A DNA stretch of 64,000 nucleotides, taken from Malacoraja senta (taxonomy: Eukaryota). The stretch's first letter is position 1. Each line of letters begins with the position of its first letter. Below are positions 17,086 through 18,048 of the stretch, piece after piece. The stretch lies in the NCBI GenBank assembly GCA_038087875.1, contig CM075996.1, positions 2,296,001 to 2,360,000 on the forward strand. Direction: 5' to 3'. The notes beneath the pieces were generated by a model. The model did not search any database and was not told the origin of the DNA. It was given only the letters and a program-made list of their open reading frames with translations. A program made the translations under genes and the position numbers.

Positions 17086-17247
17086 CCCTGATATCACTCT
17101 ATATTGGAGGGTGGTCCACTGCCCTGATATCACTCCATATTGGAGTGTAGCCAACTGCACTGATGAAACTCCACATTAGAGTGTGGCCCACTGCACTGAT
17201 ATCTCTTTTATATTGGGGTGTGTTTGATTTTACTATGAACCTGAATT
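17086..17247. repeat. 36-bp tandem repeat with internal palindrome (second block 17722-17859; duplicates ~43205-43360 and ~43812-43949)
   Basis: Units CTGATATCACTCTATATTGGAGGGTGGTCCACTGCC / CTGATATCACTCCATATTGGAGTGTAGCCAACTGCA / CTGATGAAACTCCACATTAGAGTGTGGCCCACTGCA. Confidence 0.85.
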
Positions 17248-17347
17248 CTTCAGGATGTGGAGTGTAAGTCACAGTTGAATGTTACATGTCAGCTACATGT
17301 TGTTACTGGGCTACCCTGGTTGAATACCTTGAAACAAATCTTCTCCG

Positions 17348-18048
17348 TCACCTCTTGCCAAAGCCTTTGGGGTTCATTGTTTTGAAGGGGGGAGAGTAAT
17401 CCTTTAGCTTGTGGTTTAGTGCCTCATTCAGTCTGTGTGACAGGCCGTGCATCAGGCAGGTGCTGAGAGTGCAGGGTTCAGCATGTGGTGAGAAGTGTCT
17501 GTGCGTCTTCACCTTGCTATGTGACACAGTGACGGAATCAAAACAGTCAGTCAGTACAATTAATCTGTCCCATGTGAACACGCAGTCAAAACAGCGACCC
17601 ACACCTCAAGCTCTGGAACGCTCCCTCCCTGTATCTCTCCAACCTGTTCATTAATAATTTCCATAAAAACAAAGGATTTTGTTTTGATAACAGGACATTT
17701 TTGCTCAGTGATATGCCTTTTGGGTGGTCCACTGCCCTGATATCACTCCATATTGGAGTGTAGCCAATTGCACTGATGAAACTCCACATTAGAGTGTGGC
17801 CCACTGCACTGAAATCTCTCTATATTGGGCTGTGTTTGATTTTACTGTGAACCTGAATTATGTTGTAGCTTTCTTCTTTCACACTCCTGAAGTCTGATTG
17901 TAAAGGTATGCCGATTTTCAAATTGTGTTGCTGGAAAATAGAGTTGATTAAAAATGAATACTCGCCTATTGGCATTGTCCACCTCCTGTGCCTCACCAGG
18001 AGTTCCAATGTTTAAACAGAAGAGGGCAACAAGAGCAATTATCATCAT
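17348..18048 (-). CDS. Adrenomedullin/CGRP-family-like prepropeptide, copy 1 (open frame). Exons 18048-17966, optional 17643-17605, 17516-17348: MMIIALVALFCLNIGTPGEAQEVDNAN-R-LERYREGAFQSL-S-KVKTHRHFSPHAEPCTLSTCLMHGLSHRLNEALNHKLKDYSPPFKTMNPKGF-GKR*
   Basis: Hydrophobic signal peptide; phase-2 junctions (AG|GCGAGT, cag|G, AG|GTGTGG, cacatag|C) that keep frame with or without the 39-nt exon; C-x4-C ring (CTLSTC), LSHRL helix, P-x-G-F followed by GKR amidation/cleavage signal, as in adrenomedullins. Confidence 0.8.

What the first reader, a model, noticed from the sequence alone, without database searches (positions are those of the whole stretch)
17109..17859. Mature-peptide cassette copied into the gene's own first coding intron: new proximal terminal exon, CALCA-like architecture
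Seen: a ~475-bp block (17248-17721: 3' UTR start, mature exon, intron, small pro exon) homologous to 37280-37755 and 24000-24478 is bounded by a ~138-bp direct repeat (17109-17247 and 17722-17859). One junction has AATT microhomology. The same structure occurs at 43227-43949. In the second unit the minus-strand order is: signal exon (44138), inserted cassette (43608), exon X (42559, 40653), pro exon (37719), canonical AM exon (37591). Every distal exon carries a lesion while the proximal cassette is open and fast-evolving. Known: CALCA makes calcitonin and CGRP from one signal exon using alternative terminal exons. Inference: an intragenic exon duplication captured the promoter and signal exon, creating a short new precursor and either replacing or alternating with the ancestral product.
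Basis: partly seen in the sequence, partly recalled or inferred. Interest (0 to 1): 0.8.

Follow-up and report, generated by a model that had tools for sequence, protein, structure and literature searches.

The report
Skate hormone exon copied into intron
In this skate-like genome a copy of the peptide-coding last exon of an adrenomedullin-like hormone gene sits just behind the gene's signal exon, the old downstream exons are broken, and the copy likely took over as a short, fast-evolving product, a young parallel to the two-peptide calcitonin/CGRP gene.

Summary
The cassette is real. Reads of the same organism hold it. (1) The cassette is older and was longer. Three other organisms carry it with about 190 more bases of intron and only about 21 duplicated bases. 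The 138-bp repeat is a later rearrangement seen only in this species. (2) The 'small pro exon' is likely intron, and exon X is a paralogous exon 3. One X copy (40653-40510) is open. (3) This genome cannot alternate between two peptides as CALCA does. The gene's own exon 3 is a remnant and the distal peptide exon is frameshifted. In four other organisms that exon is 11 bases longer, which fits an open frame. The two cassette copies differ at 36 of 144 bases in the peptide region, against 15 of 572 in the flank, with 30 of 35 changes non-synonymous. The ancestral peptide is identical across four batoid genera. Best reading: one insertion made a short precursor that replaced the old product here and likely diversified under selection. 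No RNA was available, and the donor site has mutated to GC, so decay is not excluded.

The parts
18720..18840 (-). Unit 1 TATA-like box and non-coding exon 1 (donor after 18720); inferred from motifs
17966..18062 (-). Unit 1 signal exon (ATG 18048; 27 codons + 2 nt). The 27 residues are identical to the Amblyraja and Leucoraja models. Donor is GC here and T at +2 in three other organisms
   Evidence: (place 17964)
17839..17859 (-). Original target-site duplication, about 21 nt including AATT; the only duplicated part in three other organisms
17722..17859 (-). 5' copy of the 138-bp repeat; a later extension that replaced about 190 nt of cassette intron
17517..17721 (-). Cassette intron piece copied from the gene's intron 3.
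17348..17516 (-). Unit 1 cassette coding exon. In-frame acceptor 15 nt downstream of the old one; 6-residue Cys ring with Thr, amidation signal, early stop; PF00214 31.6 bits
17248..17347 (-). Rest of the copied exon and start of the 3' UTR, ending at the AATT junction
17109..17247 (-). 3' copy of the repeat, the resumed ancestral intron 2. It holds a 36-bp minisatellite and variant poly(A)-like hexamers at 17234, 17214 and 17212; no AATAAA
44056..44152 (-). Unit 2 signal exon (ATG 44138), GC donor
43812..43949 (-). Unit 2 5' repeat copy
43416..43608 (-). Unit 2 cassette coding exon. Open, both ring cysteines lost, 7 codons shorter, amidation signal kept; no Pfam match
43227..43361 (-). Unit 2 3' repeat copy; junction eroded by a 14-nt deletion
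42415..42559 (-). Exon Xa: paralogous exon 3, 145 nt, frameshifted
40510..40653 (-). Exon Xb: paralogous exon 3, 144 nt, open. 20/41 identical to Amblyraja exon 3 and 25/42 to Pristis
38359..38375 (-). Likely 3' remnant of the gene's own exon 3 with its donor; the rest was not found and a repeat lies upstream
37350..37591 (-). Distal (donor) peptide exon, frameshifted before the ring; 11 nt shorter than in four other organisms
23995..27860 (-). Older broken paralogue P: promoter and exon 1 near 27860, broken peptide exon near 24270, no signal exon or exon 3 found; second copy at 50085-53950
16667..58110 (.). Contig between two N gaps. It begins and ends with the same 15.3 kb (26.1-kb period), about 99.9% identical outside the cassette and its downstream flank

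Best explanation
A roughly 690-base piece of a skate adrenomedullin-like gene (end of intron 3, peptide exon, start of the 3' UTR) lies inside the gene's own intron 2, 127 bases behind the signal exon; it was likely put there by one templated insertion, likely splices to the signal exon as a new last exon, and in this species has likely replaced the old product, whose exons are broken. SHOWN: the insertion structure with about 21 duplicated bases in three other organisms; the later growth of the repeat to 138 bp here; open frames in both units; broken distal route here; divergence confined to the peptide-coding stretch. INFERRED: a single template switch or break repair made it; the GC donor and the first AG after the branch site give precursors of 83 and 91 residues without the pro segment; the 3' end forms at variant hexamers in the resumed intron; signal cleavage near residue 20 and amidation at G-K-R release a secreted peptide; diversifying selection drove the change. 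The unit 1 peptide keeps ring, Thr and an aromatic amide, so it is predicted to be a calcitonin-family receptor agonist. The unit 2 peptide lacks the ring, so it would be an antagonist or have a non-receptor role.
For:: one contig of organism D joins 17839 to 17722 with 190 other letters. One contig of B makes the same joint. In I two loose ends do, and they match distal intron 3 at 37923-37931 and near 37770. Contigs of B, D and I run unbroken from 16880 into the cassette, and one of C spans 43070-43487. A second deletion would land within 21 nt of a duplication breakpoint 3-6% of the time, which favours one event. Rhinoraja model XP_078286608 joins the same signal peptide directly to a peptide exon, and XP_078286843 holds exon 3 plus the peptide exon with no signal. 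Unit 1 versus unit 2: 36/144 nt differ in the peptide region, 0 in the 14 codons after the stop position, 15/572 in the downstream flank (p 4e-16); non-synonymous versus flank p 4e-15. The 7-codon difference is in frame. The ring-to-amide segment is 38/38 identical among Pristis, Mobula, Hypanus and Narcine, but only 12-14/38 to unit 1. Ring removal giving an antagonist and the need for the Thr: passages of PMC3904261.
Against: No transcript was seen. The donor is GC where B, D and I have T, and about 15-18% of such changes still splice correctly (abstract of PMC8375439 in the listing). A canonical GT donor inside the signal exon would be out of frame (sequence). The ancestral acceptor and the RVKR site are lost, and there is no AATAAA between the cassette and the gap. 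pN/pS is 1.7-2.3 but not significantly above 1 (p 0.10-0.34), and synonymous sites are also raised over the flank (p 0.002-0.013). No short signal-plus-cassette protein appears among the 13 hits or the best 150 of 214, apart from the Rhinoraja model. Orthology of that model to this cassette rests on a few residues, and one of them (codon at 17368-17366) differs in B, D and I.
Confidence: 0.6

Rival explanations
1. The gene is dying in this species. The cassette once worked, but the GC donor, lost acceptor, lost dibasic site and lost cysteines in unit 2 mean little or no peptide is made now, and the divergence is older selection or conversion from copies hidden in the gaps.
For: GC donor, acceptor change and early stop are all absent from B, D and I. 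The distal exon, exon 3, exon Xa and paralogue P are broken. Synonymous sites are raised too.
Against: Both copies stay open through 36 substitutions and an in-frame deletion. The divergent tract coincides with the peptide and stops at the amidation signal. The new acceptor is the first AG after the branch-like motif and is in frame.
Confidence: 0.25
2. This genome itself alternates between a proximal and a distal peptide, as CALCA does.
For: Two homologous last exons lie behind one signal exon, and exon Xb is open and in phase.
Against: The distal exon is frameshifted before the ring, so no distal peptide can be read. The gene's own exon 3 is a 17-nt remnant. A genome search with the full precursor gave 8 matches and no other intact copy of this exon. 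An intact copy could still hide in an N gap.
Confidence: 0.05
3. Origin in two steps: a tandem duplication of intron 2 to 3' UTR, then deletion of exon 3 from the first copy. The product is the same, but nothing was inserted.
For: The locus is full of partial duplicates (Xa/Xb, P, an inverted promoter). AATT microhomology suits a duplication junction.
Against: It needs the deletion to start within about 21 nt of the duplication point, a 3-6% coincidence. No intermediate was seen in 3 of 3 other organisms laid.
Confidence: 0.12
4. Origin by LINE machinery: an unspliced RNA fragment was reverse-transcribed into the intron.
For: A duplication of 16-21 nt is in the recalled range for L1 target sites. 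The insert has the gene's orientation, and the microhomology is at the priming end. LINE elements lie near by, one with an open 1263-residue frame.
Against: No poly(A) tail, intron 3 sequence included, and the target is the source gene itself.
Confidence: 0.2
5. Units 1 and 2 are alleles joined in tandem by the assembler, not two loci. This changes the copy number but not the cassette.
For: The contig has N gaps at both ends, and the units are about 99.9% identical with 0 differences over 18250-23000. Run X1 holds variant contigs of the Xb region.
Against: A contig that begins and ends with the same 15 kb needs a loop. In X1, shared pieces have depth 5.9-7.3, unit-specific and distal pieces 2.05-3.7. 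A rough baseline is about 2.7 (it assumes similar genome sizes, and contig depth is not a copy number).
Confidence: 0.3

Closest known systems
CALCA (calcitonin/CGRP gene)
   Same: One signal exon in front of two family peptides on separate last exons; alternative splicing described in PMC6283891 (passages). This genome has its own such locus on C3.
   Different: Here the gene is adrenomedullin-like and young. The proximal copy lies before the pro exon, so the short precursor has no pro segment. The distal product is broken in this species, and no alternative transcripts were seen.
CRSP / CALCB (calcitonin receptor-stimulating peptide)
   Same: A lineage-limited calcitonin-family duplicate with several diverged forms (PMC6283891, and section 8).
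   Different: CRSP arose by whole-gene tandem duplication of CGRP. This one arose by an exon copy inside the gene, followed by unit duplication.
Tandem exon duplication-derived C-terminal substitutions
   Same: A duplicated 3' coding exon gives homologous C-termini by alternative poly(A); 77 human cases (PMC8373072, passages).
   Different: Those are mostly ancient and conserved. This one is recent, skips an intervening exon, swaps the whole bioactive peptide and is hypervariable. CALCA is not named in the main text of that paper or of PMC9741552; supplements were not read.
Chondrichthyan pro-adrenomedullin-like (AM5-like by elimination)
   Same: Signal peptide 27/27 identical to Amblyraja and Leucoraja; distal ring-to-amide 31-32/38. 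It lies apart from the CALCA-plus-ADM contig C3 and the amylin-like contig C9, which fits the AM5 position in the scheme of PMC6283891 section 8.
   Different: Orthologues have signal, pro exon and peptide exon. The AM5 label was not confirmed by neighbours: no carnitine acyltransferase match on C20 among 25, and the nearest gene found is RERG-like.

Membership tests
Calcitonin/CGRP/adrenomedullin peptide (unit 1) | PF00214 above curated cut-off | tested here: met
   31.6 bits versus 22.3
Calcitonin/CGRP/adrenomedullin peptide (unit 1) | Six-residue disulphide ring with Thr before the second Cys, and Gly-basic amidation signal | tested here: met
   Translation
Calcitonin/CGRP/adrenomedullin peptide (unit 1) | Dibasic cleavage site before the mature peptide | tested here: not met
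   RVKR reads KVKT in both units
Calcitonin/CGRP/adrenomedullin peptide (unit 2) | Disulphide ring and PF00214 match | tested here: not met
   Both Cys lost; 0 families. It is a member by descent only
Calcitonin/CGRP/adrenomedullin peptide | Activates CLR or CTR with a RAMP | not testable with these tools
   Needs a receptor assay
CALCA-type alternative last exons | Shared promoter and signal exon in front of two homologous peptide exons | tested here: met
   Only 2 signal exons in the genome, one per unit. B, D and I also hold a second, diverged signal exon of unknown place
CALCA-type alternative last exons | Both peptide exons open in the same gene (this genome) | tested here: not met
   Distal exon frameshifted, exon 3 a remnant
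CALCA-type alternative last exons | Both peptide exons open in relatives | tested here: inconclusive
   Distal exon 11 nt longer in B, C, D and I, sequence not shown; both Rhinoraja models open
CALCA-type alternative last exons | Poly(A) site behind the proximal exon | tested here: inconclusive
   Only variant hexamers, no AATAAA (variant list recalled)
CALCA-type alternative last exons | Both transcripts made, tissue-specific choice | not testable with these tools
   No RNA run was listed to lay
LINE-mediated retrocopy | Short target-site duplication | tested here: met
   About 21 nt in three other organisms
LINE-mediated retrocopy | Poly(A) tail and loss of introns | tested here: not met
   No tail; intron 3 included

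The most novel reading that the evidence does not exclude
Skates re-invented the CALCA design in a second hormone gene. Species with an intact distal exon make two peptides from one signal exon: a conserved adrenomedullin and a short hypervariable one that is amplified in some lineages. This species has passed the tipping point and keeps only the new product, already split into an agonist-like form that converges on the other adrenomedullin's helix and a ring-less antagonist-like form. A living series from both-intact to replaced would let the origin of two-peptide genes be tested directly.
Probability: 0.3. Interest if true: 0.8.

Novelty: new variant of a known kind. Interest (0 to 1): 0.57.

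Why it matters
Two-peptide genes such as CALCA are ancient, and their first steps cannot be seen. This is a young case with readable junctions, several related species at different stages, and a peptide that went from 38/38 conserved across four batoid genera to hypervariable. It offers natural variants for calcitonin-family receptor pharmacology and raises the question of what skates use a fast-evolving secreted peptide for. I found no paper on it, but the library lacks most subscription journals, and Wong and Takei 2009 was seen only as a reference.

Tried and rejected
No RNA holder was listed among 24 runs; this is no evidence either way. I laid 6 of the 24. X24 covered only repeats. One search was swamped by repeats, so its joints are uninformative and only its contig pieces were used. 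A search with the unit 1 cassette frame among 30-97-residue proteins found no candidate. The 138-bp block as a mobile element was rejected: 4 matches, all local. Gene conversion from the C3 adrenomedullin as the source of unit 1's helix was rejected: 58/114 nt identity, below 65/114 to its own donor exon. No further adrenomedullin exons lie in 100 kb on each side. A further exon X copy elsewhere was not found; the other matches among 40 scored cover the repeat-like first 180 bases. Synteny: 148 of 1056 long open frames were scanned and gave a RERG-like exon and mobile-element domains. The AM2/AM5 choice stays unproven. Earlier findings: 3 look-ups, none returned. Genomic context of the named skate models could not be read. 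Supplementary files were not read.

Full report
What is there. The window holds an adrenomedullin-like locus on the minus strand. A contig between two N gaps (16667-58110) begins and ends with the same 15.3 kb. Each copy carries an old broken paralogue (P), then a promoter, exon 1, a signal exon and the cassette. The signal peptide is identical over 27 residues to the Amblyraja and Leucoraja pro-adrenomedullin-like models. The distal exon's best solved-structure match is ADM2 (E 5.5e-6). The genome's CALCA and another adrenomedullin lie on C3 and an amylin-like exon on C9 (these names are my reading of the translations). By the scheme in section 8 of PMC6283891 this gene is AM5-like by elimination. 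Neighbours did not confirm that.

The observation. The repeats, the homology and the exon order are as described. Contigs from the same organism hold the unit 1 peptide region with 0 differences over 211 bases and cross the 17722 junction with 0 differences, so the cassette is not an assembly error. Three details fail. Exon Xb is open. The 'pro exon' has a weak acceptor, a 2-nt indel between units and no counterpart in 11 named full-length precursors. Exon X is not this gene's exon 3: it is 20/41 identical to Amblyraja exon 3, while the signal is 27/27. It keeps a residue that skate exon 3 lost, and its following intron is only about 77-79% identical to the gene's intron 3. The gene's own exon 3 survives as about 17 bases at 38375-38359, and the rest was not found.

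The history, from other organisms. I laid 6 of 24 listed runs. In 3 of 3 other organisms laid on 16880-18290 (B, D, I), contigs run from the resumed intron into the cassette, so they have it. On the 5' side they leave the window's sequence at 17839-17842 and return at 17722. D shows 190 other letters in one contig, B one joint, and I two loose ends that match distal intron 3 at 37923-37931 and near 37770. The first insertion was therefore about 690 bases with about 21 duplicated bases, AATT shared at the 3' join and one base at the 5' join. The 138-bp repeat came later in this species, likely by a template switch seeded by the 21-base duplicate. Organism C also spans the 3' junction. B, D and I have T at the donor's second base, A at 17533 as in the ancestral acceptor, and no early stop. 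Their distal exon has 194 letters between two anchors where the window has 183, and C shows 209 against 198. That length fits the open orthologues. Rhinoraja has two models on contigs of equal length: one joins the signal directly to a peptide exon, the other is exon 3 plus a peptide exon without a signal. That is the split an annotator would make of this structure. I could not see its DNA.

How it likely arose. One event is favoured over duplication then deletion, because the second breakpoint would need to fall within 21 bases of the first (3-6%). Template switching or break repair and LINE-driven copying of an unspliced fragment cannot be separated. The missing tail and the included intron count against the second.

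How it likely works. The signal exon ends in phase 2 at a GC donor that otherwise matches the consensus. The first AG after the branch-like motif is at 17516 (43608) and is in frame. The predicted precursors have 83 and 91 residues and no pro segment. Unit 1 keeps the ring, its Thr and an aromatic amide and passes PF00214. Unit 2 has lost both cysteines. Passages of PMC3904261 say that removing the ring from CGRP gives an antagonist and that the Thr is needed for activation. This predicts agonist and antagonist-like roles, untested. The dibasic site is lost, so the N-terminus is uncertain. Only variant poly(A) hexamers follow the cassette.

Rate of change. The units differ at 36 of 144 bases in the peptide region, 0 in the following 14 codons and 15 of 572 downstream. 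About 30 changes are non-synonymous and 5 synonymous. The excess over the flank is overwhelming (p 4e-15), but pN/pS of 1.7-2.3 is not significantly above 1, and synonymous sites are raised as well. The same region is the one replaced or indel-rich in B, D and I, while the ancestral segment is 38/38 identical in Pristis, Mobula, Hypanus and Narcine. Selection on the peptide is the simplest reading, and conversion from hidden copies is not excluded.

Against. No RNA could be examined. About 15-18% of GT-to-GC changes keep correct splicing (listing of PMC8375439). Several functional sites were lost in this species alone. No short skate precursor other than the Rhinoraja model appeared. The two units may be alleles, though run depths lean towards two loci. 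B, D and I hold a second, diverged signal exon whose place is unknown and which could serve their distal exons.

Verdict. It resembles CALCA in layout but fails membership here, because the distal product is broken. It is a new, young variant of last-exon duplication (PMC8373072, passages). My searches found no description. Replacement by a working, fast-evolving short precursor 0.60; decay 0.25; alternation in this genome 0.05; alternation in relatives about 0.3. Interest 0.57.

Noticed in passing
window 11252-11662 (+): An inverted copy of the promoter and exon 1 (66% identical) faces the locus; no coding exon of the family was found behind it.
   Followed up: partly
window 17351-17473 versus L021 (C3): The unit 1 peptide shares 16/38 residues with the C3 adrenomedullin, including a run in the helix, against 12/38 with its own donor exon. 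DNA identity is only 58/114, so convergence is possible.
   Followed up: partly
window 16880-18183, runs X9 and X20: Signal and cassette contigs have depth 22-25 while distal and paralogue contigs have 3.7-9.5; in X3 all are 25-40. A hint of amplification of the short gene in two organisms, not a copy number.
   Followed up: no
window 17955-18066, runs X3, X9, X20: A second signal exon with 10-11 differences in about 110 bases exists in three other organisms. In two of them its contig matches again at 17865 and below, likely across the insertion site without a cassette.
   Followed up: no
window 17109-17222: The repeated block contains a 36-bp minisatellite of 3.8 copies.
   Followed up: partly
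window 34340-37010 (-): A 5'-truncated L1-like element with a poly(A) tail begins about 340 bases behind the distal stop; family judged by eye.
   Followed up: no
window about 210-4735: A mobile element with what look like inverted terminal repeats at both ends, DIRS-like by eye.
   Followed up: no
L048:3610-7398 (+): An open 1263-residue frame with endonuclease and reverse transcriptase domains, about 13 kb left of the window.
   Followed up: no
L032:6274-6834 (-): An exon of a RERG-like small GTPase about 26 kb right of the window.
   Followed up: partly
L019, L020, L023 (C3) and L018 (C9): A calcitonin exon followed by a CGRP-like exon on C3, and an amylin-like exon on C9. PMC6283891 (2018) said no CGRP gene had been reported from cartilaginous fish.
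   Followed up: partly
proteins P0019 and P0076: An Anolis sagrei model holds two adrenomedullin units in a row and a grenadier model a doubled peptide exon; these may be other tandem copies or annotation errors.
   Followed up: no
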